In this document: in pieces, positions 2,295-29,500 of the stretch
How positions within the stretch are numbered: position 1 is the stretch's first letter
How the letters are laid out: every line of letters starts with the position of its first letter
Source: Balanoglossus misakiensis
Lineage: Eukaryota; Animalia; Hemichordata
DNA: 64,000 bases
Direction: 5' to 3'
Assembly (NCBI GenBank): GCA_040954595.2
Contig: CM082594.2
Location: forward strand, 9,490,296-9,554,295
Program-made: the position numbers and the translations under genes
Notes under the pieces: generated by a model
What the model was told of the DNA's origin: nothing
What the model saw: the letters and a program-made list of their open reading frames with translations, nothing else
Database searches by the model: none

Positions 2295-2370
2295 TGATTG
2301 GTTCAAAGTACATTTGGTAAGCTGTCAGTTATCTCTGTTGGCTGCCAGCCAATCATCTAGAGCTATATGC
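2295..2370 (+). promoter_or_regulatory. Collagen proximal promoter: inverted CCAAT (2297-2301), CCAAT (2349-2353), TATA-like CTATAT (~2363-2368)
   Basis: GATTGG, AGCCAATCA and CTATATG lie 130-200 nt upstream of the ATG, an arrangement like vertebrate fibrillar collagen promoters. TSS not determined. Confidence 0.45.
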
Positions 2371-2464
2371 TCCTTTTAATCCAGCTAGTCTCTATTAGCC
2401 TGGCTTGCCTCTCTGGATTTTTTGCCGGGCTGTAGCTGGTTGAGACTGCAAGATATTTGGCGAG

Positions 2465-2514
2465 TGCAAAGAATTTACAGGTCGTCGTTTTGAGCGGCCA
2501 TGTATAGCTTTGTG
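2465..2514 (+). promoter_or_regulatory. Collagen 5' stem-loop (LARP6-type) enclosing the start codon
   Basis: TGCAAAG-AATTTACA-GGTCGTC-GTTTT-GAGCGGCC-ATGTATAG-CTTTGTG. Lower stem GCAAAG/CTTTGT and upper stem GGTCG/CGGCC. Resembles vertebrate CCACAAAG-AGTCTACA-...-ATGTTCAG-CTTTGTGG (recalled). Confidence 0.7.
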
Positions 2515-2593
2515 GATAATACCCATCGGAGCCGATGGATGCTCTTAGCGTTTGTAGGTTTATGTTTTCTGGCAGCCCTGGCAGAAGGACAAA
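2500..2593 (+). CDS. Collagen exon 1, signal peptide [31 protein letters not shown]
   Basis: GCCATG start context, N-terminus like COL1A1 MFSFVD, hydrophobic core, phase-1 donor A|GTGAGT. Confidence 0.9.
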
Positions 2594-5500
2594 GTGAGTA
2601 CAACTTTTCTGTTTAATTCCTTAGTCTTCTTGCAAGCGATTCTGTCTTATTCCAAAGTTTGCATGGATAAGAGGTATCCTTAAGCATGCTGTGGTTGCCT
2701 GACTTTTTTTTTACTTCAAAGAACGGTGCCAAACTTTTGTTTTAAAATTGAGAATAAGCAGGCAAGAAGGAAAATAGCTCAAGTAGGATGGGTTAGATGT
2801 AGCATCAGTAGCATGGTTCTGAGATGAGTTCAAAAGTGAGAAAGAAAACAGCTGAGATTCAGTGTGACCATCAGTGCCACAAGGTTTTGAGTAGCTTATT
2901 CACGTCGTCAAGTCACAGTTGTAATAAATGCCAGATGCTCTGTCTAGCTGAGAAAGGCAGAGGTCGCCTTGAAGGGCGAGATGCTCTGCATGACAGAGTT
3001 GACTGCCTGTGAAAATAGCCGAATGATATTTGATAAACTTTTACAGTGATAAGTTCACGCGATGACAAATACCTCTGCAGCTCGCACACAGGGCTGCTGT
3101 GCAGGGGGGCCTGCTTGTGGAGATGAGCTGCCAGTATCTTATCCTGAACCCTGGGTGTCTTATGTAATAAGAGTTGATTAGCAGAAACCTGCTTAATGAG
3201 TGTGCTGTCTTTGTTGACCCTCCCCTCCCCCTCTTTCAATCTCAAACACATTCATGTGGTCATTCATTCCAAGGAGTTGTGGTTAGGTCGGCAATTGAGC
3301 TTGGAGAGGGGAGCCTATTTGAATTCCACATCTTTAGAATTCCTGCCTTCTGAGTGGATTGAACTTGTGCATACTGCCTGCCTCTGTTTCAAATCAGGCC
3401 AAGTTACACAACTCCACATATATTGAGGTTGACCAGAGCCACTCTCTGTAAACAAATATTCAAGTTTTACACATGTTAAATTTCTTCACCAAAGATAACA
3501 TGAATGTAAATGTTTCTGACAAACAATAAAATTATGAGGAGCAAATTCTCGTCACGTATATTGAGTAGCGTGCTGGAGTTTCTCATTTCAGTGGCAGTTT
3601 GAGAAATGTTTTCACTGACATAAAATGATTTAAGAGCTGCTATTACAGTTTGTCATGTGTTGATGTCAATCAACCACCATTCAGTGTGATTTGCAGCCAT
3701 ATTTTATAGCCACTGGTGCAGTATTAATTCTTGCTATCAGGGGAAAGATACCGCTGGTATCTAATCAAAACAGTCCTATCTTTTCAGAAAAGATAAATAT
3801 TTTCCTTGATTTTGCTTTTTGTATTAATCTTGGCCCTTACAAGTATTAATCCCTGACCTCACCATGAAAACATGAATTTCATTATTTCCATTGGTAAACA
3901 TTTATTTGCAATTATTTGCCTCACTTCATTCTTCGAAAATTGTTTTTGAAGTGTCAACCAATGAAAACACTACACTGTGTTTTGCAGATTCGGTAGGTGG
4001 TGACAGTCTTTCTTTAAGTGCTGTCATAGGTTAAGTGATCTTTGCTCTTTATTCTGCGGACAAAATTGTTTTGTGACAATCAGCTGTTCTTTTCTTAGCA
4101 AGTATTAAGAGACCTGTTTTCTTCAGTTATACCCTTTCACAGTTGGAATATTGGAATAGTCAATTGACAGCTGGGATGTTGTCGTTTTCTACTCAAAGAC
4201 CGTAGATTGCTCAATTGTTTTCAGTTTTCCAGCATTTCAATGGAGAATACTTTCCAACTTACATAACTTCACTTATCTTCATTCCCCATTCAGGGATCAG
4301 AGGGGCCATTAACCTTTCTTGGACCATAATTATTCTTTTCATGAAAAAGTTTCAATGGACAACTCTCCCGGGAGAACCCAACAGCCTGTAGAATTTAAGA
4401 ATTACAATGAAGTGTATACTTAGATGGCGATTCCAAGTCTAGCAAACATGTAATGATTAGGGTCGTCTCATCATTTAACAGACAATATCAGTTTTCTTGG
4501 GTGCACATGATAAATTTGTCCCATTTTAAGATCTTTGAATACAATATTGCATAGTTCACAGTTGCCCCATTACTTAGGCAGTCTTGCAATAATGATACAC
4601 CAGTTATTTGCATATCCAATAATGCATCTGTGTAGTTATTGGTGTTGCAAATCTGAAATACCTCATGATAAATTAATTTCACAGTAGCTAGTGAGCTTAC
4701 TGGCAACTGGATCCAGCCTAAGCACGTCTGGTATACTTCCGCTATTTAGCATTTACATGTTAGTGTCATGACAGTTTGAACCCAATGACAATAGTCAAGT
4801 GACTGCCCCGTTGTCACTTTTTGAAAGACTTTTTTCAGTTATCTTATTTGTCAAGATTGCATACAAGATGACTGTAAGATCTTGTAAACAGAGAAACTGT
4901 CAATTAAAATAACAATACACGTCCTGCGCCTGCTTGTAGATTTGAGAAGCTTCACTAGTCTATCTTGGATTGGGAGTAATGGCGGACACAAAAGTGTCTT
5001 TAAAGGGACAAAGTGATTGGCTTTTGACAGTTCTTTGGTTAGGTTTGTTTCCTGTGGGAAGTAATGCACATCTGTCAACCAAGTATTAAATCACTATTCA
5101 AAAAAGTTAATATCACCCAAATAATAATAAGTGACAAAGCTAGTCTCTTTAATAAAAGTCATTCCATAATTATTAGAAATAATGATATTTTATGTCAATA
5201 TAATGAAAAGTCTGTAAATTATTTTGAAAGAGCTAGTGGGTGTGTTTTCTCAAGGAGCACAGCTATAGAAGTTGACCGAGCAAAAGTATTTCAAATGTTG
5301 GCTTTTTGCTGACTGGCTTGTTGAAAACTCACTGACTGTGCGTGGGTGGTCTGACTTTATAATTCCAAACGCAACTCCCACTTTCTAGCAAGTCAACTTT
5401 CTTCCTTACTCTTTGACTCCTGCCATTCACAATAACAAAGTTTTCTTTCTCGGAATAGCTCTCTGAGACGTGACTCTTGTCTAAAAATCTTGAGAAGATT

Positions 5501-11500: not shown

Positions 11501-14500
11501 ATGTCATATGTCATTATCTGCTGTGCCAATCCCCAGTTACCTGCATAATGCCCATCTCATACACTCTGAGACTCAGGAGCTGCAAGATGCATTGATGCTA
11601 TTCTAATGGCCTTGCCTCATCTTATACCACTTTTTATTAGTTTTAGTGCAAGCACCCAGTGTGCGTTTTGATATTTTTTGTTTTTCTTTGTTTTGTTTTG
11701 TTGTGTGTGCGCGTGCGTGTGTGTACGTGTGAGGATGATTTCATAAGTTTTGCGTTTCAGTGTCACTGTCACAGATCCCCATTGTTAGTGTCATATCTTG
11801 TAATTTTTCCCAACAGGTTTCAAATTAGTTCTTACATTCTCTGTCTATCTCCCCCCGTACTCCCATCGCCTCATTTTGAACATCTCACAACACTATCATG
11901 CTTTGTCATTTTACACGATGACCAAACCCATCTTAAAGGGGCAGTGTGATGGCCTTGGTCTGCCGATTTAAAAACTTTTAAAAACTACGACATCTCACAC
12001 ATCCAGTAGCAGTGGAGTCCCCAACTCACATCACACATACAGTTATTCCCGGTGTTATTTCCCAATCTTACAATCCGTGAAAGTGTCCTTTCCCAACACA
12101 CCCAACCACGGAAGTAAGTGACTGTCCCAACACACAAGACAAGCAATGGAAACACCGTCATGTCACGCAATCCATGTACGCTTGCCACACACTGAACAAG
12201 ACAGGAGGCAGTGTGCGGTACGTGCCGTTCGAGGCCAAACTGACTAAAATCACGGTTTCTTTTCATCTGTTCTTTCTGTTTCTCAGCCAACATAAGTCCA
12301 AGAGCAGGTGAGATAAGTGTTAGTGCATTCTCCTCTAGTACCCCATGGCTTATATCTCTCTCTTCAACCCACCCACCCACCCTCCCTCCTCCAAGAACAC
12401 TACCCTTTTCTAAGATTCCCACGCTTGCCTCAGCTACACTATACAACCTTAAAGCCCTAAGATATTTTATAAGCAAGTTTTTTTCAATCTGTAATTTTCT
12501 GTTGTGTACTCTGTTCTTCTGTACCAGTTATGTACATTGCAAGTGTAGATTTTTTCTGGATTTAACACCGAAATAAAATGATATTGTAGTTTTAGTCTGG
12601 TTTGAAGTTATTTTAGTTTGCAGTTTTGCTCTGTAAGCATATTTCATCTAGCATTAACTTGTCATCAATACTGAACAGCGAGTTGTCTGTGATTCTCGAA
12701 AGAAAAATAAAACCAATGTGTCTTTGTGCAAAAAGATTGAAAGATTCCTGTACAACCTTCATCTATTCAATATTATTCTGTATTGCGGACATTTTGAGTT
12801 GAAACACAGAACAGAAACATTGTTTCGTATTTTGGCAGGGAGGTGCAATCTCATTGGTTGTCACCTTTTGCACCAAAGAAATTGACCAATCACAGACTAG
12901 ACTGGAATATCTGTCCAAATCACAGACAACTTTGCAAGTAGATCAGTTCCAGCTTGTGAGACAACCAGAAGAACTTCCACACTGTATTGTCAACTTTGGA
13001 TTAGTCCTGCAAAATTCTCTTTACCAAAACACTACAATAATTTCCCATTGCTCACCACTGTCATTTCTATAAAAGTTTCAGGGAACTACCATCATTTTGC
13101 CATCTTCACAAACACTAGATAAGTTAGTTCTGTCATTCAGTGTCAACATGTTTTAGTCAAACTTCACCAAGAGTAATTTGCTCACAGCTGGAACATTTGC
13201 TGGCAATAACATACAAATATACACCCATTCCCATTTAAGTATAGCTTCAACATTTAAATGAAATGGTTTCTGATAGAGTTGTAAACTAAAACATTGAAGG
13301 TTGGGGGCGCTATAACACTTTTGCGTGTGCCACATGCCAAGCTCTGAACTTCTGAAGAAAATTATAGTAGTATGTTATGGTTGTATGTATGTGTGTGAAC
13401 TGTTGAAACTGTTATAATTGAAAGAAAGAGAAGGAAAATTTTAATGAAATGATTCTGTTGAAGCGCTATTTTCATCACTTAATTCATCTCAAACTCTGCA
13501 TAAAGATTGGCAAGGCATGAACTTAGAACTTTCCAAAAACTTTCTTGAGGTAGATTATGTGTGAGCTGGATGCTTTTAATGTGCACCAGTCCTTTTACAA
13601 CCGTATTGTGGGACCAGCAGACAAAAAGACGGGGTGAAGGGTTATAAATTGATAAGCTAAGCCAGGCCGAGGTACTGAAGATGACTCATTAAAAACGTCA
13701 AACCTTGGATGTGCCAGAGAAGTTTTCTCCGACTATAACTTTGAATATTATCGCGCTTGCAAAGCAAAGGTATGTTTATGTGATATCTAAGTGTTGTGTG
13801 TGGGGAGTTTGGCCTTGAGTGTTTCATTGCAATGGTAGAGATGTGTTTGATAATTCTGTCGATTCATGGGTTCGATAGATGAGGGATAATAAAGAGTAAA
13901 TGAGGTTACAGGGATTATTTATATGTTCGAGTTGATAAAGTTTAATATAGGGGACTGAACTTTAAAATTTACCATGATTGACCACTTTTGGTACCAGCAA
14001 GGATTGGCTATTTAGTCACATTCCTAGCTCCTCCAGTACAGCATTGCACAGTATTTACTAGAACAGCTACCGTCTCTAAAATCTCAGTTATTCCCCTGTC
14101 CCTCCAGGTGAAATCGCGGCAGTCAGTGACCTCCCATGCCTGTATCTAGGAAAGATCTATTTTCACAGAGAGGAGTGGCAGGCAAATGCATGCTCCAACT
14201 GTACTTGTAGAAACTCTACGACCACTTGTATAAGTCGTACATGTGAAATACCTAGGTGTTCAGATCCATATACACCCGAGGGAGCTTGTTGTGCAAGATG
14301 TCCTGAGAGTGAGTACAGATTTTTTTAAACTTTTTTTCTTTTTCTGCTATTTTTTTCTTTTCATTTCTTCATTTTTTCACTTTATGTGAATTTGTGCACA
14401 TTTTGAAATCCCATTGTCTATGTCTATTAATGTTGCGATTTTTAGATAAAAAATACTTTTAACCCCATTCAGTATGGGGTGTCTTTCTTGTTTTTTATAT

Positions 14501-17500
14501 GTCAACTGTCAACCTTTTCAAACTTTTGAATATTTTGTTCTTGTTTCATCCATCCATTTTGAGTCTATCCTGTTTCCTTTGTTTTGTTGCATTCCATTGT
14601 CTTTGCAATTTTGCAATCATCTTTTCCACCCTTTGTCATTGTGTTCTCATCAGTGTGTCGATATCTTCAACAAGCAAACCTGTCACTCATATCTCTATGT
14701 CAACATTTTTCGAGCATTTTTCGAGACATCTCCCTCCCATCTGTTAAAGGTCCGGATGTTAAAATACTGATGATTACCATGAGACGATCTCTGAAAAGCT
14801 TCCACTTTCCTTCCTCTGTTCACTTATCCAGCATGTGCACACATGTAACATGCACACCTGGACTGGTACACCTGGGATTTTTTTGGTGTGAAAGTTAATT
14901 CCCATGCATTCAGGTATGCATGGGATATCACTTTGGCATTACGTATTTCATCCAAGAAAATGTTACATGAACACCAATATATTGCGCTTGAAAATCTCAT
15001 GTGTATGGATAACACATTCTGTTTTTCCACAGATGTTGTTATTATCGATCTGAAAGTGGATCTTCCTCCTGAGGCTATGACTATCGAAGGGTTGACAAAC
15101 AACAAAATCACATTTGATGTCATCGGATTGTACAATGAAATCAGTACCAGTCTAACTGGGGAAAACTTGTGGCGAATGAACGTCTTTGGCAGCAAAAGTC
15201 CTGATGGCACCAAGGGGAAAAAACACTCGTTAGTTCGAAACGCTTTAGACGAGGACCAAGTGGACACACCTGTGACGCTTGGCTCACCTTTAACCTTCCT
15301 GGATGTGATGGCGAATATGGACATGAAGAATTTGCTTTGCAGTGATCTAAAGTATCTTTGCGTGAAACTGATCAAAGATCCAAAATCAAAGCCTAAATTT
15401 GAATTTGAAGGGCAACCACCCGAAGTTCTACAAGCATGTGCAGAACTTCCATGTAAAGGTAAGCGTCAGAAAAGGTTCTCTCAGTCTTCCATTCTGTAGA
15501 GGTGCATGCAAAAGGAATAACTTTCAATGACCAGGCTGAGTTTGATAGTAAAATCAACCAAAAAATGGGAGCTATTAGTATACTAACACCAATGATCTTT
15601 GAATCCTTTTATTTCTAGGTGTGATAATCACAGGAAATACAGTAAGTGTTCCTGATGGCACCATGGTACAAGAGAACACACCCTTCAACCCTATAAGTCT
15701 TGGTATAACCTACGAAAGTGACCCTCAGGGTTCATCCATATTCGGTACGGACCTTTGGAAACTAGAGCTGTATGGTAACCCAAGACCAGACGGAACAGGT
15801 AAACCGGTTCCCATAGAAACCCAGGCTCTGTCTCCAGTGCAACGTAGCCAGGCGCTGGCAGGCGGTGTGCCGATTGAGTTTTCACCGATTTCCACAAATG
15901 TCGACATGACTGGCATTGCCTGTGAAGATGTGCCGTATTTCTGTATGACGTTGTCCAAAGGCAATAAGCCAAGCCGAGAGTTCACTCTGACTGGGGATCC
16001 TGACGAGCGCGTCTTCACTGGATGTGCTGCTATTCCCTGCAAACGTAAGTTGCAATATAGCTGTCCACTCTGACTGAATTATCTGTATTTTAAACATCTG
16101 TTTTGAGGTCCAAACTTCCAGATCTCAGGGCTACACTATAGTTTTGGGGTCTGCACTTTTGGATAACCACTCTTAACTACTGCATAAAGGGGCAAGACTA
16201 CACTTTCTATGTCTGAACTGTAATTTCTTAGGTACCCCTGAAAAAGAATTTTACTTTTCAGAGATGATCATTATTTTTTTTAATCTTCCCTCCAGCAAAT
16301 AATCAACTGAATGTGGTTGACACAAAGTTGAACATCGATCCGCTGCCTGAGGTTAAAGAAGGAAGCCCGACCAACCCCGTGGACTTCAGCGTTGACGTGA
16401 CTTCTGATCCGACAAGTACGGACATCGACGGCGACGACTTGTGGAAGTTGAAAACATTGCTGAGTACCTCTCCTGATGCCAGCACAGACCGAGAAGTCCT
16501 CAGCGAGGACGTGTTGCCGCCACCAGACAAGGACAAGGACTTGCCGTCAGCCTCCACTATCAAGTTCCCTGACTTGACCACGAATGTCGACATGAGAAAC
16601 AAAGACTGCGATGAAGCCAAATACTTCTGTGTTGAATTGAGCAAAGATCCTGCAGCTGATCCAGACTATACGATGACAGGACGATCTCAAGATTTAGTAG
16701 ACTGTGTTCCTATGGATTGTACTGAAGGTAAAGAATGTTCGAACTTAAATTGGCCTCTGTATATCGAAACATTCTCTGTTCATAGTGACAAATTCAATCT
16801 TCGTTATGTACAAAATAAGTGTTTCAATGTATGAGAATATCTGCAGTTATCATCTTTTCTATTTTTGTTATTTTTTCCTGTAGCTGACAAGGAGTTAAAC
16901 GTGATCGACACAGATATAAAAGTAGATGAGCCACCTGTCGTTGAAGAAGGCACACCATCAAATCCTATCGACTTCGACGTTGACGTGACTTCTGACCCAA
17001 GAAGTGACGACATTGACGGTGATGACTTATGGAAAGTTAGAACACTACTGAGTTCGACTCCGGACGGACAAACAGACCGAGATATCCTCAGCGAAGATGT
17101 GTTGCCCCCACGAGACAAAGACAAAGACCTGCCGTCAGACTCAACTATCACTTTCCCCGACCTGAATACAAATGTGGACATGAGAAACAAAGACTGCGAT
17201 GAAGCCAAATACTTCTGTGTTGAAATGAGCAAAGATGACAGAGCCAATCCTGATTACACCATGACAGGACGACCTGAAGATTTGGTAGACTGTGTTCCTC
17301 TGGACTGTAAAGAAGGTATCTCCAAACTATGATTTGATATTCACCTTTGAACACCACGATTTTTCCTGCCAAAATTCTGGTACAAAATTTTCTTATTTTG
17401 CATATTTTTCTCAAATTTTTTCCTTAATTTTGGACCAAGTTGACATAATTTTTCATTGGCAGCCGTTTTTGATTAACATTTCAGAAAAATTACAGAAAAA

Positions 17501-20500
17501 GTTATGAGGGTTAATTTTGTGAAAGTGTTTCAATGAATGAGAATATCATCATTTCTATTTTTAATATTTTTCCCTGTAGCTGACAAGGAGTTAAACGTGA
17601 TCGACACAGATATAAAAGTAGATGAGCCACCTGTCGTTGAAGAAGGCAAACCATCAAATCCTATCGACTTTGACGTTGACGTGACTTCTGACCCAAGAAG
17701 TGACGACATCGATGGTGATGACTTGTGGAAAGTGAGAACACTACTGAGTTCGACTCCCGACGGACAAACAGACCGAGATATCCTCAGCGAAGATGTGTTG
17801 CCCCCAAGAGACAAAGACAAAGACCTGCCGTCGGACTCAACTATCACTTTTCCCGACCTGAATACAAATGTGGACATGAGAAACAAAGACTGCGATGAAG
17901 CCAAATACTTCTGTGTTGAAATGAGCAAAGATGACAGAGCCAATCCTGATTATGCCATGACAGGACGACCTGAAGATTTGGTAGACTGTGTACCTCTGGA
18001 CTGTAAAGAAGGTATCTATCATTTTTTCTTGCCAAATGCTGGTGCCAAATTTCCTTATTTTTGCACATTTTTCTCTCATTTTTCCTTTATTCCTCATGCC
18101 GAGTATTTTCAACTGTGAATATTCATCTGAACTTTATTTTTTCGTATTTTCCAGAGGATAAACCTGTCAATGTGGTCGAGACAGACCTAACTCCTCACAG
18201 TAATTATCCAGTCAAAGAGGGATCGCCGAACAACCCAGTTGATTTTGACGTACAACTGGAGTCTGATCCGACGGGAGGCGACGCAGACGGAAACAACCTG
18301 TGGAAAGTGAAAACGTTCACCAGTTCGACACCAGATGGTCGCAACGACAGAAATACGCTTGACGAGCAGACCCTGAGGCCGACTCAGTCGGATCAAGATT
18401 TGCCTGCCGGCGATTCCACAACCTTTTACAACCTGCGAGCAAACGTGGACATGACAACTCTGAAGTGTGGTGAAGTCGACTACCTGTGCGTAGAAGTCCA
18501 AAAGGAATACAATGCTGATCCTGATTTTGACTTGCAAGGAAGTCTTGTGGACTGTATACCCTTACGGTGCACTAAAGGTTTGTCTGTTGCCATGGGGACG
18601 CGTCGATTCTACCAGCCCCTCTGCTAGTGGTCATCTCCTCTGCCCGCTTAGTTTGGGTCTGACCTCGGCGCCTTCAGTGGTGTAGTTAGAGAGCCACACA
18701 ATATTGAGAAATTGGAGGAGGTTTAGGAGACAGGGTTTCCACTGAAAGGGCTTTCCTCCATCTCTGCCAATCGATCAAAAACGCTTCTGATGTTTTTATG
18801 TATGCTAGTATCTTGGTACAGCAGTTTGTGTCCTCTATATCATTGCTTTCCAAACTCTGATGAGCACTCTGGTTCCAACCCCTGAAACTTCTTTTCAGCC
18901 CCCATCCACTTTTGTCGTCTGTGAAATTGGCCAAAGGTGCCAGATCCTCTTGTGTCACTCCCATCATAGAATCACAGTTTCTACACTGCTGTAGACTGTG
19001 AAGTTCTTTTACCAGCTCCTAACCACTTGCAGCATACGGAATCGTGGTTCTGGTGAAGGTTCTTTAAGTGGTTGAGGCACCCTTTCTTTTCCATTGATTT
19101 CACATACGGAGGTCGCTCTTCCGGATCTGTAGGCCTTTCTGCATACATTTACATTCCCACCACTGACTTCACCACTGTGTCCTCAGACTATACACTTTCT
19201 GTCACTTAAATCTCAGACAGGTGAACTTTTCAGCACTGTGCCAAGTGGTATCCATGCTCGAAAGAAGATGGTCCTACTGCATGCAGAGATGATCGTACAT
19301 GTACTTTGTTACAAACACACACATCACACATTCCCCTCCCCCACAAACAGCTGAGTATTACCGTGCATGCCTCCACTGTAGACAACACAATTTTGTCTTG
19401 CACAACATTCCACGTTTAGTCACAACACAGGTTCCAACAACTGCAGCATCGATGGGCCACCGCTATTACTGTGAAACCGTTTTTCTCTTTACAGTGTGTA
19501 TTTTCAAAATGTTTTTAAACTGTTGTAAATCATTGATAAGTTTTTTGACTGTTTTCAGTTGTCACCTAATCTGTTTTGTCTTCTGCTTTTTTTTCATGAA
19601 ATCTGATTATCAGGAGGTGATACGGTGAGTAATTTCATCATTTTCAACGCCATAGTGATTTTCCTTTGCTGTTGTGATAAAAGTCATTAGCAAAAACGAA
19701 AATGTAGATAGATTTGTAGAGTGGACAAAGAACATTGGAATAATGATGATCAGTTAAAGATCAGATTTTTGCCATAACTTGCATGTGGTTTGATTGGCAT
19801 GATAATTTTCATTTGGATGGACTGGACAATGCCAATTTACTATTGTCACAAGCATTTTCATTTTTATTTTCATGAAGACATTGGTTTTAATTGGCATGAA
19901 CATGCATGTCTGTTAGAATGTCTTTTGATTGCTGTGAAAGTGTTTAGTGTTTTGCATGATGAGGCAGTTTCCTTTTAAACCATGTTGAGTTACTATGGTT
20001 ACTCAATCAGTTGCCATGACAAAATTGCCTTGTTTGCTAGCGAACAATCTTGTTGCGATGACAACAATGTAAGTTTCAACAAAAACGACAGCATTTACTT
20101 TGTGATCCATCTCTGAGCAGAATTTTATCAGCATGGCTATACACTCAAATTGATTAGTTCAGAAAATTAAATTTGATAAACATGACATTATTTTTTTTAC
20201 CTTAATTAGCATGATTTGATTAGCATGACGTTGATTGATTTGATTTTGCATGACAATGAGTTTTTCATCTTGATTAGCATGACATCAGTTGATTTGATTT
20301 GATTTGTTTTGACAAATTAATATTGCTATGACAACAATATAGCGTACAATTTGCATGTTATTGTAATTACAAATGATTGAAATTGCTCCAAGTTTCTTCT
20401 GTTTGATCTACATTACAATTATGTTAGTTTGATGGTTCTGGTATACGAAACCCCCTGGACACATCATATACGTTTAACCAAATCTATCCGAAACTCTGGG

Positions 20501-23500
20501 TAACTTGTGGGTGGAAAATGTCTGCATGGGAAGTGTCTTGGGGGTAACCGTCTTGATTGATTCAAAGAATATCTCCATGACATACACAATTAGGAAAGTT
20601 TGGTGCCATGGTAACAATGTGGTTCCATGACAACAAAATGGTTGCAACGACAAACAGTTTGACTGGCATGACAAAGGGTTTATAGGACATCAGTGACGAG
20701 GTTTGCATGGGGTTTGATTGGCATGACAACAAACTTATTTTGTTTGGCATGACAACAAACAAGTTGATTTACTGCACAAGATGATTGCCATGACAACATT
20801 CAATTAGATTGCCACAACAATGAAACATATTGATTGCCATGACAATTGGTCTTGTTTGATTGGCATGACAACATATACCTTTGATTGCTGTGACAATGTA
20901 CTATTTGATTGCCATGACAACATTTGTTTCCAATTATTTTATCCACTTGGCAGCCTGATCAAGGAGAGAAAGGAGATCCAGGTGAAGTGGTGAGTGTCGG
21001 GTGAAATGCCAAAAAAAAAAAAAAAAACTAAAAAAATATGAAGTCTGTGTTTTCAGTTATTGTCAATGGATAAAATATGCATACACAATCTCAGGTTGGG
21101 TGGTGATACGAGATATGTTCTGATCATTCTGTCAGAACACATTACTGCCCCAGTGCATTTAACTGAATATTCTTCCCTCTCCTTCCTATACACACATATC
21201 AAATCAACACCCACCTTCCCCAGACATCAAACCAAGACAAATATGCCAATACTTTCCCCTCATATCAAACCAAGCCTCAAAATACACCCCCTGAAAAATC
21301 AGATCATATCTCTCACCACATGGACGTGCACCAACCTAGATTGATATGTATGCAAACTTGCACTGCTTTGAATCACATAATGACATTTCTTGGGATAGGT
21401 GAAAGTTTATTACAGCATTACTGTTGTGCAATCCACATTGCCAGTATTTTACGTTTTTTTTACAAATTACATTCTCATAATTATACAAATTATGATACAA
21501 TGTGCGTTGGACAACAGTGTTTCTTTGAAAGATGTTGACCTCTATGTCTCTTGTCTTTTGTCACAAATGATCCCTCAGTCCTTGTCATCAACTCTATAAC
21601 CATTTCATCATCAAGTAATTCCTTATTTTCCAATTCCATATACCTATAGTACAACTTCAAATCAGCAATGCCTGCAACTTTTTTGATATTTTATGTCAGT
21701 ATTTTGCTCCCTATAGCAACATGCATTTCAACATGCTTCAAAGAGTAGAACATTTAATATACATGTATGGGGGAAATACAACAAATACGACATTCGATAT
21801 CAAAAAGTTACAGCTGGCTCCCATCTCTTTAATGTGTGTGAAGTATAAAAACCTGTTTATTAAAAGAAATCTGTCCTTACTAGAGAGGTGTCCTGATTAG
21901 AGTGGTTTCTATAGAAAGATGTGTTCTTTGTGGTTTCTTTGTGGGAAAAAATAATACCTGTTTCAACAACAGTTTGGTAGTACATGCTTCAATGTGCACT
22001 GCTGTAAACTGAAAGTTGATGTTTTATTTTTTCAGCCTGATGGAAACGGACCAATTGGTGAACCAGGAATACCAGGAGAGACGGTAAGTCTTTTCCTAGA
22101 TTTTGATGAAATCTGCCCTCATCTTTTTTCCATTAAACACTTGGGGAATGCCAAGTTTTTTTTTCCATGGAAAATTCAAAACATTGAGACAGCTTCATTT
22201 GTTTTAGCCATCAATACAAGTTCTTTATTCTGCAGTTGTTAGTCGTTTGAAATTTGAAAACTATCTGTGACCTGCAATATGACACAACAGCACTGAACAA
22301 CAATTTTAACATTTTCTGTTTTAGGGCCCAAGAGGACCAGCAGGTTCCAGAGGCCCATCAGGACCACCCGGACCTCGAGTAAGTAAAATCCTCTCCTGGT
22401 TTCGTTTTAACGGTATTTGCTCATATTTTGCTAACTATGTCAAATACATGACTGTACAATGTATGTAGTCAGCTGCAGTACAAAGCCTTCAAATTCTATG
22501 CAACTCATCTTAGAAGCTGCTTGGCGAATTAAAATGAATCACTTTGTTCGTTTCCTTTGCAGGGTGACCAAGGTAATCCAGGACGAGATGGCAGACCAGG
22601 TCAGCCTGGACCACCAGGCCCACCCGGACCCCAAGGTATTGGATCATCACCCTCAGGTGGCGGTGAGAAAGGTCCCGGATTTGGCCAAGTTCAACAACCA
22701 GTTGCTATGATGCCAGGTCCTTCTGGACCAAGAGGTCCCACTGGCCCTCCAGGTCCAAGAGTAAGTATACAAGGGGCAAAGTTGCTCTCTTTTTGGGGTA
22801 TCTTGGTTTCTTTTGATATACATGTACATTTATATTTGTATAAGTCATTGTAATATTAGAGTGCGATTTACAATTGAAGCAAATCTCACGGTTTTGGCTG
22901 GCATGTTGTAAACCACACAACTTGAAGACGCGTATATGCTCTGAGGCATAGCACCAGGCTAATTTATAAACATCGTCAGAGCCATTTTGCAGACACACCT
23001 TCACTAATTTTGTTCCACCATGAATTTCTCCAAGTCTAGCGTTGTTTTTAAACCGTTAATCTAGCAGGGAACATGTCATTAACAATGACTTTTTCCTTGC
23101 CCAACAGGGATCACAAGGTTTTGCCGGTCCACCAGGTGAACCAGGAGAGATGGGACCACCAGTAAGTATATTTTTCTTGAGAATCTTTTATTTGTTTAGG
23201 CATATTGGGTTATTTTATACCCGGAAAACTTTCATATTTTGATATTGTAATAATAACCTATATCAGTGAGGGCTTGTTTATGGGCCTTAAATATTTGTAC
23301 ACATCACAAAAGCGAAAAATGCAAAATTGATCAGTTTTTAATGATTTTTTTCTGTAGGGTTTGATGGGTCCTCGCGGTCAACAAGGTCTTACAGGTGATC
23401 CAGGTGAAGAAGTAAGTGAAATTCAACTTTTTAAAGTGTAAATGAGTTTAAAACTGTCATATGCACATGAGTGATGATTCAAGCTTTGATAATCATTGGC

Positions 23501-26500
23501 TTTGCATGTTACTGTAACATCGTGGCACTTTCACAGTTTAAATATATCCTGTTGCTTTCCTAGGGTGAACGTGGTGAAGATGGTAGACCCGGTCCCCCAG
23601 GTCCAGTTGGTCCCCAAGGTGGGCGTGGTTCCTCAGGACTTCCCGGAATGCCAGGACCTAAGGGTCACAGGGTAAGCTGTATTCTTATCCTTTGATGATG
23701 TGGAAACGTGAGCTTAAAATGATGTGCTTTATGCTTATTAAAAGTATTGGGTGTGTACCCGGTAATGCTATTTTGGATATGAGCCCTGGCGCTTTGTATT
23801 TAAAATTCACAGCGTTCAGTGTTTGCTCTGTCTACAAATGTAGTTTGTCTGTGCAAGGCATTCAGGGAAATGGGAACTTGTAGTTGTCACTGATGGTTGA
23901 TTCTTTTGTTTTTATGTCACCAGGGTTGGAATGGAAACGATGGAAAACCAGGTGAGGCAGGAGCACCAGGAGATCGGGTAAGTCCTAATTAACCCTCCCC
24001 CCCCCCTCCCACTACTAAAAGTTAGTTCAGTCCACATTGTTTGCAGTGGAATTTGTGGAGCATACACATGAAAATGGGGGGAGACTGAATTGCATGTCGT
24101 CTGCAGTATTATAAACAGATAATACTAGTACATATATAAATCACCAAAAGTTGTACTACTAATTTGAAAGTATCTGATTACTGTTACTGTCATGAACTTG
24201 TTGGATGTGCTTTTCCAATCACTTTGAAATGCTGTGAAGCACAGTCTCTGATACATTACCCTGATGTAGGTATCTTGAGGATCGTGACTGAAAGTTCACA
24301 GCAAAAAATTGTTTTTGTTTTAGAAAGTTGTCTTGATAAAAAGAGATGGTCTTGATGACAAGCTTACAGGATAACTGTCAAGTGTTTAATATTTTGATTT
24401 TGTTTGGTTACAGGGTGAAAGTGGTTCCCCTGGACAATCAGGTTTACCTGGACAACCGGTAGGTGCTGAACTTTGGAAAGAAGTTCATCCATGCAGATCT
24501 ATCGAGAAACAATGCCGTTGATTGGATTAATTGACTGCTGTGAAATCCTTTGATTGGGCCAATTTGTTGAAATACAGGATCATTTATGGGCCTTGGAATA
24601 ATGTTAGAATTTATGTAATAGTTTTCAAAAGGGATAGTATTTAATATAATGTTTTTGATACATTCACTTGTAGGGATCAAGAGGATTGCCAGGCGAAAGA
24701 GGAAACCCAGGAAGTAATGGAGAACCTGTAAGTAACAAATGTCCCACCTTAAGTTAGCTTTTATGCCTCTGTATATATGAAGATTTGTGATCATTTGATT
24801 ATCATCAACTTTAATACAAAACAGACTTGAGAAAAGATATAATCACTTTGCAAATCACTACCAGATTTTTCCCTTGGCCAATAGTCTGCATAAAGAGAAC
24901 TGTGATTGAAATATTACCCGGACAAACACTGTGATGTGTGTGATACTGACAATTAAGACATAAAATGTATCTTTTCTTGCAGGGAGCAAGAGGATCTGAT
25001 GGCCCACCTGGAGCTTCAGGACCACCGGTAAGTACAATCTGTCAACAGAAAGGGTTCGTTGTCTCACAGCTGAATGTGCCTTGTTTTGGTCTGACCTTTG
25101 TGATAATTAATCAACTGCATAATATTCATTCATAATGTTTGTACTAATGTTACTTGCTTGTAGTTTTGAATGAGTTCTTCGTGTCTGGACTGTTTTTAGG
25201 GATCACCAGGTCAGTCAGGACAACCAGGATTTCCAGGCAGTCCAGGAGCAAAGGGAGAATCAGGAAAACCCGGAAACACAGGTCCATCCGGTCCACAAGG
25301 TGCCAGAGGAGAGGCTGGTCCAGTCGGTCCACCCGGATCTTCCGGTCAAAGAGTGAGTAACGTTTGAATTTAACAAAAGCAGCAATGTAGGTTTACTTAG
25401 CAGTGAACAGTTAAATGTTTACTAACTGTTTTTTTATGTTTGATTTCTGTGAAATGGAATTTTTAATCAGACACCCTGGAACCTGTGTACATTAGAATTT
25501 TTTCAATGAATATTCTATCTCTCCCTATTAGGGTCCACCTGGTGTAAATGGCGTTCCCGGAGGCAAAGGTGAAACTGTAAGTATAAATGATCATTGCTGT
25601 ATCCTGTCAGTACGTCACTTTGTAATACTGTGCTTTATATCACAAAACTATGCTGTCAGATTATTTTGTGGTACTATTTTAAACTCAAAAATATTTTGGA
25701 TGCCATGCACTCATAAGACAAAATATATCAATTATTAATTATCAAATTCTCTCTTTCTTTCCCAGGGTTCTTCAGGTATGCCAGGTTCACCTGGTTTTCA
25801 AGGACCACCTGGCGCACCTGTAAGTACATTATATCTCTTCCTGATTGGCTCGATTTCAGATTTTTTATCCTCTAAGGATCACTGCATTGGCTGTTAAACT
25901 CAAAACTTGATTTAGTGGGTTACAAAGCTTGTACATGTTCAAGAATGGTGTGCTTTTTTCACTAACTTGCTAACAATTATTATTTTTCTTGTGTGATTTC
26001 AGGGTATTGCAGGAAGTGCTGGTCCAACTGGAGCCAAAGGTTCTCAGGTAAGCCTGAAATATGAACCACTTTAATAATAAACCACTGGTGCTGTGAATGG
26101 ATCCTTATCTTTGAAGTCACCGTAATTCACATTTCATGACAACATATTGACTGTGTTCGTCTCAAAAAATAATTGAAACATGCACATTTTTATCGATAAA
26201 TTTATGGCAAAACGATTGATCTTTTTATTTTCCAGGGAGACCCAGGTATTAGTGGAATGAAAGGAGAACAGGGCCCATCTGGTCTGCCAGTAAGTACTCT
26301 ATTGATTTTATGTAGATATTTATGACCTTACAAGAATTGAATATAGTCTGATCACGATTTCTGTTTGCATCCACCATTTTGAATTGATATTTTCGCTTGT
26401 TCCTCCATGGGTAACTTTAGAGGGGTCAGACTTGCAAGTTTCAGACAGAGCAAGAAGAAACTTTTCGTATTTTGTCTGTATATATAATCATCAGTTAGTG

Positions 26501-29500
26501 AATATAATCAGTGCTATGATGTGGTTGTGGTATTGTTTAATATAAATAAGTTTTTCAATATTTCTTCTAATTAAAACATAATTTTTTTCTCACCAGGGTA
26601 ACCCTGGTCCAAGAGGTTTGTCAGGAAACCCAGGAGACGATGGCAAAAGAGTAAGTCACTGCATGATTATATCAATAGTTCTCTCAACACTTCTTTTTTT
26701 ATTTTTCAGTATTTCTATTTGTATTTTATATTTCTTAAATTTTCATCTGCGATATGCAATGACAAATTAATTTTGTATTTTGTTTCCAGGGAGACCGTGG
26801 TGATCCTGGTCCACCAGGTGCAGCAGGTGCCCAGGGAGAATCTGTAAGTATAACTCTCTCACCACTATGGTTTAGTCCAAATCCATTGTTTTCTATGGTA
26901 AAGTTGGACCTCTTAAGAGGATACTCAGAGAAGATAATCAGAGAAGACTAGTAAATTTGTTTGACGTTACATTGTAACTTTCTGTTTTGGTAAATTACCA
27001 TGGAAACCACATCAATACCCTACATATTTTGCTGTTTCCTCTAGGGATCTCAAGGTTTACCAGGTTTCCCAGGACAGCCAGGTAGCGTTGGACCAAAGGT
27101 AAGATTTAAATAGAATCCTGTATGCAGATGTTATCATCAGACTTTTCACCGCAATCAGTTTAACGAATCCCCTATACAGGCAAAAACACATGCCTATTCT
27201 ACAGCCCACACTCCAACAACAAAACATATGCTTGACTTTCTATCTCTGTCTAGCTTTCTCATCCTCATGTCAATCATTTTGTCGTTTCCAGGGTGACACT
27301 GGAGATAGAGGCAATCCAGGTCCATCAGGTCTGAAGGGACCCGCTGTAAGTAAATGGTTTCTACCTGCTCACTAGTTTATACTTTAAGTAAAATTCTTTA
27401 TCCCAGATTCCTGGGTTACTTTAAAGGGGAAACATGGTTTATTCCAGATTGACAGTTTTCTGAAAACCAAAATGAACTCATTAGAACATAACAGTGAAAT
27501 AGTTGCGCAAAAAAAATACGCTAACATTTTTCTGTGATTTTGCTATTTATGGATGGAGACAATAAACATCCGACAAACATGGAAATAAAAGAATTATTTA
27601 GGTTACAATTTACACTTTCATATTTACAGGGTGACACAGGAAGACAAGGACCACAGGGTATGCCTGGACCAAGAGTAAGTTGGCTCACTGTATTATCACT
27701 CTATGCACGAAAATGGTTCAATTATTGGCATATATGAGAGAAACGGTGGAATTAACCAAAATTTTACAACACTGGTAATAGTCAGAATTGCAAACTAAAA
27801 CAGAAGTGGAAGGTGCAGCTGATGTATTTCGATGCAAATTGATTCACCTCAGCAGATGCGTACCAGATAATTATTTTTCATGAAACAAAGTTTGTGAGAT
27901 GTAAGTTTTGTTTGAAATCAGAGATTCCTCACAAGTTGTGTGTCTTTAATTGGTATGTTGAGTGTATCGCTTGAAATTTTGATATGGACGTTTCGTTTAT
28001 GTTTTGTCAGGGTATGACAGGCGCTCCAGGTAAAGATGGCCAACAGGGAAGAAGTGGTGCTCCAGGTATTCCTGGCGACGATGGACGAGCTGGAAGTGAA
28101 GGAATGCCTGTAAGTCCAAGTGATGATAGAGGAGCAATCAACAACATTTTCACTTTAAAAAAACCACATGCCAATAGTGCTAGATGTATGTGTGTATATG
28201 TACAATGTGTGTATGTTCCTTCTAACTGTAACATCATCTTCTTCAATTTTTCTTTAGGGTCTGCCTGGCAAGAGTGGTATTATGGGTATGCCTGGTCCCA
28301 AAGGTCCTCAGGTAAGACATCTTCAGAACGACATCATGTGGAACAATTATAGTCTGAATGTTGTGTAGGATATTCTCAATTATCCTCATCAGAATTTCAT
28401 TCAGTGCAGTTTGTAATCCGTTCTTTTCTATCATTTACTTATAAATCTGATGATATTTTTTTTTTCCATTTAGGGTGACCCTGGCAAAGATGGTTCAACT
28501 GGTCAAACAGGTCCCAGAGGAGCAAGGGTAAGGCAATAAATGTTAATGCAGATTTTGAGGGTTTATTATAATTACAGAGAAGTCATATGGAGTAGGTACA
28601 GACTGGAAGAAGTTCAGTATGCGCGCACAGTTCAGTATGCACTTATCGTTTATTTTACTCTGTTGTTTTCCGGTTGTATGTAGGGAGAGCCCGGCAAAGA
28701 TGGTGATCCCGGACTTCCAGGTTTGGTGGGACCCCGTGGTGCAACTGGTGAAAGAGGTGCTCCTGGTGCCGCTGGTGGTCAAGGTTCTATGGGTCCATCT
28801 GGAATGCCAGGTGCACCTGGTGAAGCCGGACCGGCAGGAGAAGCAGGTGTTCAGGGTGATGTGGGACCACCTGGTCCAGCAGGTCCAAGGGTGAGTGATT
28901 GGGTTTACTTGTCTATACTTTTGATATTCCAAAGTTCACTGTTTCAGAATTTTTGTTTCCATTTCTGATCTTGACCAGTATGTGCTGTTTTGCAGATATT
29001 GTGAGAAAATCTAGGGCAATTTGAGCAGTCGCTAGAATTTCTTTTTTATACCTCTCAATGGAATCTCAACATGAGGGATTATTTTCACTGGTTATTCGTA
29101 ATTTTGTTTTGGAAGACACCCCTATAACAAAATATGTTGTCATTAGACTTTGCCTGATTGGACGTGTTCTTAGTCAACTTATGTTTAAAATAAACTTGAG
29201 GTTCTGATATTTAATTGTCTCTGATTTACACAAAATTTATGATTATGTTGTAGGGCATCAAGATATTTTGTCTACGTGCTGCTTCGCAGCAATTCCAAGG
29301 GTAGTTGACAGTTGTCAATTCTCTTGCACCAAGCTTTGCAAATTTGAGAACACACCCTTTTTCTTTATTTTGCCAGTCATTTTAAATAGGACCAGCAACC
29401 TTGCTTGTGGGTTTGCATTTTCTGAAGAAGTCAACACAGTGTGATATGCAAACCCCTTGAACAGAATTCAGGTTTTATTTTTTCATTTTTCCCATTCTGA

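What the first reader, a model, noticed from the sequence alone, without database searches (positions are those of the whole stretch)
2465..2514. Invertebrate homologue of the LARP6-binding collagen 5' stem-loop
Seen: CAAAG-AATTTACA-[GGTCG..CGGCC hairpin]-ATGTATAG-CTTTGTGG encloses the AUG. Established (recalled): vertebrate COL1A1, COL1A2 and COL3A1 have CACAAAG-AGUCUACA-[stem]-AUGUUCAG-CUUUGUGG, which binds LARP6 and is usually described as a vertebrate element. Here the non-coding 5' arm and bulge are similar, while the upper stem has a different sequence that still pairs, and the vertebrate upstream AUG is absent. Inference: this translational control predates the chordate-ambulacrarian split.
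Basis: partly seen in the sequence, partly recalled or inferred. Interest (0 to 1): 0.85.

Follow-up and report, generated by a model that had tools for sequence, protein, structure and literature searches.

The report
Collagen start-codon hairpin in acorn worm
The fibrillar collagen gene of an acorn-worm-like animal (a hemichordate) carries around its start codon a close copy of the RNA hairpin through which the protein LARP6 controls collagen production in vertebrates, so this device is likely older than vertebrates, although LARP6 binding and transcription of the hairpin are untested here.

Summary
Window 2464-2515 (+) is predicted to fold into two stems around an internal loop, with the ATG (2500) in the 3' strand of the upper stem (dG -17.6 kcal/mol; 0 of 200 shuffles fold as well). 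The gene is a fibrillar procollagen with a signal peptide MYSFVD..., VWC, SURF-type modules, 54-bp Gly-X-Y exons and COLFI. Its closest known protein is from the hemichordate Ptychodera flava.

Against the human COL1A1 5' stem-loop printed in PMC11988235, the non-coding 5' arm matches 11 of 13 bases and the 3' arm 15 of 18. Four of the five loop bases critical for LARP6 are kept; the critical C is a U. The upper stem differs in sequence but still pairs, and there is no upstream AUG. The codons AGC-TTT-GTG equal the human ones (p about 0.014 from this gene's codon usage).

It is most likely a homologue of the vertebrate element, which the LARP6 literature calls vertebrate-only. Three things were not shown: the transcription start, RNA-level conservation in relatives (no relative's DNA was reachable) and LARP6 binding. 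Two 1992 sea-urchin collagen papers that might anticipate this could not be read. Verdict: a real new variant of a known kind, interest about 0.6.

The parts
2464..2515 (+). Whole element: a 52-nt equivalent of the 48-nt vertebrate collagen 5' stem-loop
   Evidence: dG -17.6, z -3.80, 0 of 200 shuffles fold as well. Compared by eye with the human COL1A1 ligand printed in PMC11988235.
2466..2471 (+). Stem 1, 5' strand (GCAAAG, non-coding); pairs with 2508-2513
   Evidence: pair probabilities 0.73-0.78. The human element has 8 bp here.
2472..2476 (+). Internal loop, 5' side (B1 equivalent, AAUUU; human AGUCU). U2476 is predicted to pair with A2504.
   Evidence: The critical B1 A and both U positions are kept (critical bases).
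2477..2485 (+). Stem 2, 5' strand (ACAGGUCGU). The first three bases ACA are as in human; the rest differs but still pairs.
2486..2493 (+). Apical loop, 8 nt (human: 5 nt)
2494..2503 (+). Stem 2, 3' strand, with bulged A2500. Contains the start codon ATG 2500-2502.
2504..2507 (+). Internal loop, 3' side (B2 equivalent, AUAG; human UCAG). The critical A and G are kept; the critical C is U2505.
2508..2513 (+). Stem 1, 3' strand (CUUUGU), within codons 3-5 (AGC UUU GUG)
   Evidence: The codons are identical to the human COL1A1 primer sequence. Chance of this codon choice is 0.014.
2500..2594 (+). Coding part of exon 1: signal peptide [31 protein letters not shown] plus 2 nt. The donor GTGAGT starts at 2595.
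   Evidence: 26 of 31 residues are identical to P. flava XP_070535949.1.
2297..2369 (+). Promoter-like motifs: ATTGG at 2297, CCAAT at 2349, TATATG at 2364. The inferred transcription start is about 2387-2397.
   Evidence: motif positions only. The start site is inferred and not measured.
14126..14304 (+). VWC-domain exon of the N-propeptide
   Evidence: Pfam VWC, E 1.2e-11. 68% identical to P. flava.
15032..18597 (+). Six exons of four-cysteine SURF-type modules
   Evidence: tblastn of the P. flava, Glandiceps and Acanthaster proteins. SURF modules are described in PMC2852846. No Pfam family matches.
22325..36215 (+). Gly-X-Y triple-helix exons, mostly 54 bp or multiples of 54 bp
37244..38939 (+). 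C-propeptide (COLFI) exons and the stop codon
   Evidence: PF01410, E 3e-16 to 3e-26.

Best explanation
The 52 bases at 2464-2515 are predicted to fold into a two-stem hairpin with an internal loop that encloses the start codon of a hemichordate-type fibrillar procollagen gene; this is likely a homologue of the vertebrate collagen 5' stem-loop and would work by hiding the AUG and probably by recruiting the animal's single LARP6 protein.

Shown here:
- the sequence, the predicted fold and its excess stability;
- the gene's identity;
- the base-by-base resemblance to the human element.

Inferred:
- that the 5' arm is transcribed (a TATA-like box at 2364 would put the cap about 70-80 nt upstream of the hairpin);
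- that the RNA folds this way in vivo;
- that the hairpin throttles initiation;
- that LARP6 binds the internal loop and couples translation of the collagen mRNA to the ER, as described for vertebrates.
For: 1. Position. The hairpin spans the 5'UTR/CDS junction of a gene with VWC, Gly-X-Y and COLFI parts. The AUG lies in the 3' strand of the upper stem next to the loop, as in the human element.

2. Architecture. It has two stems and an internal loop that is 5+4 nt in the vertebrate register. It is 52 nt against 48 nt in human.

3. Stability. 0 of 200 shuffles of the 52-mer fold as well. 45 of 3000 UTR shuffles recreate the nested two-stem architecture. The fold persists in a 197-nt context.

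4. Sequence. The non-coding arm CAAAGA.U.UACA matches 11 of 13 bases. The 3' arm from ATG to GGA matches 15 of 18 bases. The three loop differences, read with the closing pair set aside, are all transitions.

5. Critical bases. Four of the five bases whose mutation abolishes LARP6 binding are kept: B1 A, B1 U, B2 A and B2 G.

6. Upper stem. Beyond ACA/UGU its sequence is different but complementary (9-10 pairs). This fits the report that stem sequence does not matter for binding.

7. Synonymous sites. Ser-Phe-Val use AGC-TTT-GTG exactly as in human COL1A1. This gene's own codon usage gives p = 0.014 for that choice, which points to constraint on the RNA and not only on the peptide.

8. Relatives. 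P. flava starts MYSFVD. Starfish VWC/SURF collagen-type proteins start MYSFVG, MYSYVG, MFVFVG and MCAFVG. Residue 6 varies between D and G, whose codons both begin with G, as the stem would require (inference; no DNA seen).

9. LARP6. Invertebrates have a single LARP6 gene (PMC7928011, passages). An algal LARP6 La module binds the human 5'SL at low micromolar affinity (PMC11988235, abstract).
Against: - The critical B2 C is a U here. C>A abolishes binding in human; C>U was not reported in the texts read.
- Stem 1 is 6 bp (7 with a weak U-G pair, probability 0.045) against 8 bp in human.
- Stem 2 has a bulged A and the apical loop is 8 nt, not 5.
- The uAUGs typical of vertebrate type I mRNAs are absent.
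- Stefanovic et al. report that RRM loop 3, needed for 5'SL binding, is 22 aa in vertebrate LARP6 but only 4 aa in invertebrate LARP6. The 2025 NMR study calls the RNK motif conserved among vertebrates and the binding surface lineage-specific.
- Five of the 11 matching bases in the 5' arm (CAAAG) follow automatically from complementarity to the coding arm. Read alone, the loop identity (3 of 5 and 2 of 4) is weak.
- Sea-urchin VWC proteins among the hits (S. purpuratus, Lytechinus, Diadema) do not start with this motif.
- There is only one RNA sequence, so no covariation test was possible.
Confidence: 0.55

Rival explanations
1. It is a homologous hairpin that is independent of LARP6. The start-codon hairpin would be ancestral to deuterostome clade-A fibrillar collagens and act only as a structural brake on initiation, or bind some other factor. 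LARP6 recruitment would then be a later vertebrate innovation.
For: - The critical B2 C is changed to U.
- Vertebrate-specific LARP6 features are used for binding: RRM loop 3 is 22 aa against 4 aa in invertebrates, and there is a vertebrate-conserved RNK motif and a 'lineage-specific' surface.
- Earlier scan notes (unchecked leads) describe COL2A1 hairpins that have lost LARP6-type features.
- The AUG is buried in a -17.6 kcal/mol structure.
Against: - Four of the five critical loop bases and the loop geometry are kept over a very long divergence. The upper stem drifted freely over the same time, which suggests the loop itself is read by something.
- The La domain alone binds the human element with nanomolar affinity.
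- Even an algal La module binds the human element weakly.
Confidence: 0.3
2. There is no functional RNA element. The 3' arm would be conserved only because the signal peptide start M-x-S-F-V-D is conserved as protein, and the complementary 5' arm would be chance.
For: - The whole exon-1 peptide, not just the hairpin codons, is 26 of 31 identical to P. flava.
- 45 of 3000 UTR shuffles give a similar architecture.
- The window-scale z-score for 2460-2520 is only -2.29.
- No RNA evidence exists.
Against: - The architecture has p about 0.015 and the synonymous codon identity p about 0.014.
- The 5' arm matches 11 of 13 bases at the same register, and the loop sizes are the same.
- 0 of 200 shuffles of the exact element fold as well.
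- The N-terminal residues of signal peptides are not normally conserved between phyla (general knowledge).
Confidence: 0.1
3. It is a DNA-level element, or the transcription start lies inside or downstream of the 5' arm. The inverted repeat would then be a promoter-proximal or first-exon protein-binding site and not an RNA structure.
For: The transcription start is unknown. The TATA-like motif (TATATG at 2364) is non-canonical. Yamada et al. 1983, cited, originally called the vertebrate element a 'regulatory signal' without settling its level of action.
Against: - In vertebrates the element acts as RNA.
- The CCAAT and TATA-like motifs lie 100-150 nt upstream of the hairpin. This gives a cap-to-hairpin distance of about 70-80 nt, like the 75-85 nt reported for vertebrates.
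- There is no ATG between 2368 and 2499, as expected of a real leader.
Confidence: 0.05

Closest known systems
Collagen 5' stem-loop (5'SL) of vertebrate COL1A1, COL1A2 and COL3A1 mRNAs, the LARP6 binding site (Yamada 1983; Stefanovic 1999; Cai 2010; read here: PMC4615758, PMC4813270, PMC12288881, PMC11988235)
   Same: - It sits at the 5'UTR/CDS junction of a fibrillar procollagen mRNA.
- It has two stems around a 5+4-nt internal loop.
- The AUG is in the 3' strand of the upper stem, directly before the loop.
- The lower-stem core is CAAAG/CUUUG.
- ACA/UGU is at the base of the upper stem.
- Loop bases A, U, U (5' side) and A, G (3' side) are kept.
- Codons 3-5 are AGC UUU GUG.
- The inferred distance from the cap is similar.
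   Different: - Host is a hemichordate-type animal.
- It is 52 nt, not 48.
- Stem 1 is 6 bp, not 8.
- The upper stem has an unrelated sequence with one bulged A.
- The apical loop is 8 nt, not 5.
- The loop differs by G>A and C>U on the 5' side, and on the 3' side by U>A and by C>U at the LARP6-critical C.
- A Watson-Crick U-A pair replaces the U-U pair reported by NMR.
- There is no upstream AUG.
- LARP6 binding is untested.
Start-codon hairpins of COL2A1 mRNAs
   Same: These are also said to lie outside the canonical COL1/COL3 set, which suggests the hairpin belongs to clade-A fibrillar collagens in general.
   Different: They are vertebrate genes. I could not verify them: the held text of PMC2289160 (10,579 characters) contains none of the search terms, and the scan notes are unchecked.
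Iron-responsive element (IRE) in the 5'UTR of ferritin mRNA, as a comparison of mechanism only
   Same: It is a small hairpin with an internal loop or bulge in an mRNA leader, read by one dedicated protein to control initiation (recalled; the IRE literature is cited in PMC4615758).
   Different: The sequence and the protein are unrelated, the IRE does not contain the start codon, and there is no homology.

Membership tests
Collagen 5' stem-loop (LARP6-binding 5'SL) | Lies in a fibrillar procollagen mRNA and spans the 5'UTR/coding junction, with the start codon inside the structure | tested here: met
   The ATG at 2500 lies in the 3' strand of stem 2. The gene has VWC, Gly-X-Y and COLFI parts.
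Collagen 5' stem-loop (LARP6-binding 5'SL) | Two helical stems flanking a 9-nt internal loop (5 + 4); about 48 nt in total | tested here: met
   Predicted fold. In the vertebrate register the loop is AAUUU / AUAG. ViennaRNA closes U2476-A2504, where NMR reports a tentatively assigned U-U pair next to stem 2 in the human alpha2(I)-based model RNA. The element is 52 nt against 48 nt.
Collagen 5' stem-loop (LARP6-binding 5'SL) | All five loop nucleotides whose single mutation abolishes LARP6 binding (B1 A, B1 U, B2 C, B2 A, B2 G) | tested here: not met
   Four of five are present. The B2 C is U2505. The tested human mutant was C>A; the effect of C>U was not found in the texts read.
Collagen 5' stem-loop (LARP6-binding 5'SL) | Located 75-85 nt from the cap | tested here: inconclusive
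   TATATG at 2364 and Inr-like motifs at 2376 and 2385 would give about 70-80 nt. No transcript data were available.
Collagen 5' stem-loop (LARP6-binding 5'SL) | High-affinity, loop-specific binding by LARP6 | not testable with these tools
   No genome is held for the window, no LARP6 sequence could be obtained, and this needs a binding assay.
Collagen 5' stem-loop (LARP6-binding 5'SL) | Conservation of the structure in orthologues (covariation) | not testable with these tools
   No DNA of relatives was reachable. Only protein N-termini were seen: P. flava MYSFVD; starfish MYSFVG, MYSYVG and MFVFVG.
Collagen 5' stem-loop (LARP6-binding 5'SL) | Short upstream ORFs / an AUG in the 5' strand of stem 2 (typical of type I mRNAs, not required for binding) | tested here: not met
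   There is no ATG between 2368 and 2499. The human ligand has AUG in the 5' strand of stem 2.
Clade-A type fibrillar procollagen with VWC + SURF N-propeptide (ambulacrarian type) | Signal peptide, VWC, four-cysteine SURF modules, long Gly-X-Y helix in 54-bp exons, COLFI C-propeptide | tested here: met
   SURF modules are described for sea urchins in PMC2852846. The nearest proteins are P. flava XP_070535949.1 (72-74% in orthologous modules), Glandiceps talaboti and A. planci collagen alpha-1(II)-like.

The most novel reading that the evidence does not exclude
The LARP6-collagen 5' stem-loop system is not a vertebrate invention tied to type I collagen. It would be an ancestral deuterostome device, more than half a billion years old, that already controlled translation of the clade-A fibrillar procollagen in the common ancestor of chordates and ambulacrarians. 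Hemichordate and starfish collagen mRNAs would still be read by their single LARP6.
Probability: 0.4. Interest if true: 0.8.

Novelty: new variant of a known kind. Interest (0 to 1): 0.6.

Why it matters
Reviews of the LARP6 field state that the 5' stem-loop arose in vertebrates with type I collagen and occurs only in COL1A1, COL1A2 and COL3A1. LARP6 inhibitors are being pursued as anti-fibrotic drugs on the strength of that specificity.

A hemichordate copy with a drifted upper stem but a nearly intact internal loop has three consequences:
- It dates the element to before the chordate-ambulacrarian split.
- It is a natural mutagenesis experiment showing which positions are truly constrained. 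The loop A, U, U and A, G, the CAAAG/CUUUG stem and ACA/UGU are kept. Stem 2, the apical loop and the uAUG are free.
- It makes testable whether the short-loop invertebrate LARP6 can read the element, which bears on how the non-canonical La-domain surface evolved.

It would also explain why the first residues of fibrillar collagen signal peptides (M-x-S-F-V-D/G) are so oddly conserved across phyla.

Tried and rejected
- Rfam scan of 2000-3000 at E up to 10: only two chance-level matches (SNORD46, Pseudomonadales-1), no collagen family.
- Whole genome of the window: none is held.
- Sequencing runs: no RNA holder was listed for 2300-2700, so no reads could be laid and the transcription start was not mapped.
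- Earlier notes of this scan: nothing by place or by sequence. Word searches gave only vertebrate COL2A1 leads.
0 of 117 continue with TGG after the pattern and none looks like collagen, so all are chance matches in unrelated DNA.
- Word-indexed protein searches. The SURF exon with 'longer' gave 1 hit, P. flava. P0002 residues 1-95 with 'near' gave only itself. The COLFI exon with 'longer' gave 0 hits among 53 candidates. Full-length relatives with names were therefore not obtained this way.
- Papers not held: Exposito et al. 1992 (PubMed 1639795 and 1380962), Stefanovic 1999 (PMC104393), Cai 2010 (PMC2826804), Bousquet-Antonelli 2009 (PMC2673062).
- Literature searches linking LARP6 or the stem-loop with invertebrate collagens found no relevant paper. 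The searches were: LARP6 + stem-loop + collagen + sea urchin, 1 irrelevant paper; the same with 'invertebrate' in place of 'sea urchin', 10 papers held, 9 listed, none by title or abstract on an invertebrate collagen hairpin, and the passages I read in four of them (PMC4615758, PMC4288179, PMC11988235, PMC12288881) mention none; sea urchin + fibrillar collagen + untranslated + stem-loop, 0; a six-term variant, 1 irrelevant; translation initiation site + inverted repeat + sea urchin, 0; LARP6 + echinoderm, 3 irrelevant; LARP6 + hemichord, 0.
No vertebrate sequences could be obtained as loci, and I did not type the paper's human sequence into any tool. The comparison with it is by eye.
- A minus-strand ORF over the site (2395-2526, 43 aa) was considered and rejected: it has no support and lies antisense to a clear exon 1.

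Full report
**What is there.**
ViennaRNA folds 2466-2513 into a bipartite hairpin. Stem 1 is GCAAAG paired with CUUUGU (6 bp). The internal loop is AAUU on the 5' side and UAG on the 3' side. Stem 2 is 2476-2485 paired with 2494-2504, with A2500 bulged. The apical loop is 8 nt.

For 2460-2520 the energy is -17.6 kcal/mol, z -2.29, and 6 of 200 shuffles fold as well. For the exact 52 nt at 2464-2515, z is -3.80 and 0 of 200 shuffles fold as well. The same hairpin appears in the MFE and centroid folds of a 197-nt context, with pair probabilities of about 0.78. The ATG at 2500 sits in the 3' strand of stem 2.

**The gene and the organism.**
The ATG opens [31 protein letters not shown], followed by a GTGAGT donor at 2595. 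Downstream on the same strand lie:
- a VWC exon (Pfam E 1.2e-11);
- six exons of about 140-aa four-cysteine modules;
- about 14 kb of 54-bp-type Gly-X-Y exons;
- three COLFI exons ending at 38939.

This is a fibrillar procollagen of the VWC + SURF type that Exposito's review describes for sea urchins (PMC2852846, passages).

The only word-index hit of a SURF exon was XP_070535949.1 of the hemichordate Ptychodera flava. That protein starts [31 protein letters not shown], then has VWC and SURF modules. Orthologous modules are 72-74% identical to P. flava and 52-58% identical to Glandiceps talaboti. The window therefore comes from an enteropneust that is neither of these two species. No genome is held for it.

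**Comparison with the vertebrate element.**
The Methods of PMC11988235 print the 48-nt human COL1A1 5'SL ligand. Primer tables print the human and mouse COL1A1 start regions (PMC8199077). I aligned these by eye and typed none of them into a tool. The result, part by part:
- Stem 1, 5' strand: 5 of 8 bases identical (core CAAAG).
- Loop, 5' side: AGUCU in human, AAUUU here.
- Base of stem 2: ACA in both.
- The AUGU stretch: identical.
- Loop, 3' side: UCAG in human, AUAG here.
- Stem 1, 3' strand: CUUUGUGG in both.

Overall the non-coding arm matches 11 of 13 bases, and the arm from ATG onward matches 15 of 18. The rest of stem 2 is unrelated in sequence but still pairs. The human AUG in the 5' strand of stem 2 is absent, and there is no ATG at all between 2368 and 2499.

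The bases whose single mutation abolishes LARP6 binding are B1 A, B1 U, B2 C, B2 A and B2 G (PMC4615758 and PMC4813270, passages). Four of these are present here. The C is a U. Where NMR tentatively places a U-U pair next to stem 2 in the human alpha2(I)-based model RNA (PMC12288881), the window can form a U-A pair.

**Is it more than chance or coding constraint?**
A two-arm pattern written after seeing the match occurs once in the window and in 0 of 100 shuffles.

A fairer test kept the coding part fixed and shuffled the putative leader. 45 of 3000 shuffles gave a nested two-stem structure pairing both CUUUG and UGU.

The codons for Ser-Phe-Val are AGC-TTT-GTG, as in human. From this gene's own usage (73 Ser, 9 Phe and 27 Val codons) that choice has probability 0.014.

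Five of the 11 matches in the 5' arm follow from complementarity alone, and loop identity taken alone is weak. The case therefore rests on position, architecture and sequence together.

**Relatives.**
An exhaustive HMMER search with the first 95 residues of the P. flava protein found 237 proteins at E up to 0.001, of which 150 were listed.

Among all 175 proteins held afterwards, 18 begin with M-x-x-[F/Y]-V-[D/G/Q/H] within the first 14 residues. They are:
- the three P. flava isoforms;
- starfish proteins: A. planci collagen alpha-1(II)-like, with MYSFVG after MRAS; Asterias MYSYVG (2); Asterias MFVFVG (5);
- an unnamed MCAFVG and an unnamed MTLFVG;
- fish COL1A1-like and COL3A1-like N-termini.

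Patiria has MYSLVS. Sea-urchin VWC hits (S. purpuratus, Lytechinus, Diadema) and a spider collagen lack the motif. The alternation of D and G at residue 6 (both codons start with G) is what an RNA stem would tolerate. No DNA of any relative could be fetched, so this is inference.

**Mechanism.**
In vertebrates the element lowers basal initiation and binds LARP6. LARP6 then recruits further factors and targets translation to the ER (PMC4813270).

By homology I propose the same for this gene. The hairpin would hide the AUG, and the conserved loop would be read by the single invertebrate LARP6 (PMC7928011).

Against LARP6 binding:
- the C-to-U change in the loop;
- the short RRM loop 3 of invertebrate LARP6;
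- the vertebrate-conserved RNK motif.

For it:
- the La domain alone suffices in human;
- an algal La module binds the human 5'SL weakly.

My odds:
- homologous element read by LARP6: 0.55;
- homologous but LARP6-independent: 0.30;
- chance plus peptide conservation: 0.10;
- DNA-level element or downstream start: 0.05.

**Novelty.**
The LARP6 papers read here say the element belongs to vertebrates and to COL1A1, COL1A2 and COL3A1 only. Seven searches of the held library found no relevant paper on an invertebrate collagen stem-loop.

The two 1992 sea-urchin collagen cDNA papers are not held, and I cannot exclude that they noted a similarity. Supplements were not consulted.

I file this as a new variant of a known kind.

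**Limits.**
- There is one RNA sequence only.
- There are no transcript data: no RNA holder was listed.
- There is no LARP6 sequence from this lineage.
- The comparison with the human element was made by eye.

Noticed in passing
window 2523-2538 (+): A second, perfect 6-bp hairpin (CCAUCG / CGAUGG, loop GAGC) lies 8 nt after the collagen hairpin, inside signal-peptide codons H-R-S-R-W (dG -8.7; 6 of 200 shuffles fold as well). P. flava has H-R-N-R-W, so the one amino-acid difference falls in the loop codon. It may be part of a larger structured start region.
   Followed up: partly
window 16880-17320 and 17576-18013 (+): Two neighbouring SURF-module exons are about 96% identical at DNA level while their downstream introns diverge. 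This looks like a recent tandem exon duplication in the N-propeptide.
   Followed up: partly
window 2500-2592 (+): The signal-peptide exon is 26 of 31 residues identical to P. flava. That is more conserved than the VWC exon (68%) or the SURF exons (72-74%), which is unusual for a signal peptide.
   Followed up: partly
proteins P0002-P0004, P0051, P0011 (relatives): NCBI models of P. flava and Asterias annotate the signal peptide + VWC + SURF part as separate 'uncharacterized' or 'chordin-like' proteins of 320-1500 aa without a collagen helix. Either these are split gene models, or real short isoforms share the collagen first exon and would therefore share the hairpin.
   Followed up: no
window 54618-55055 (-): A minus-strand ORF of 146 aa has a Gly run and Arg/Pro-rich low-complexity sequence. 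It appears to be an unrelated gene downstream of the collagen gene and was not examined.
   Followed up: no
window 2297-2369 (+): ATTGG, CCAAT and TATATG are spaced as in a CCAAT/TATA promoter about 100-200 nt upstream of the ATG. The only upstream ATG (2367) overlaps the TATA-like box.
   Followed up: partly
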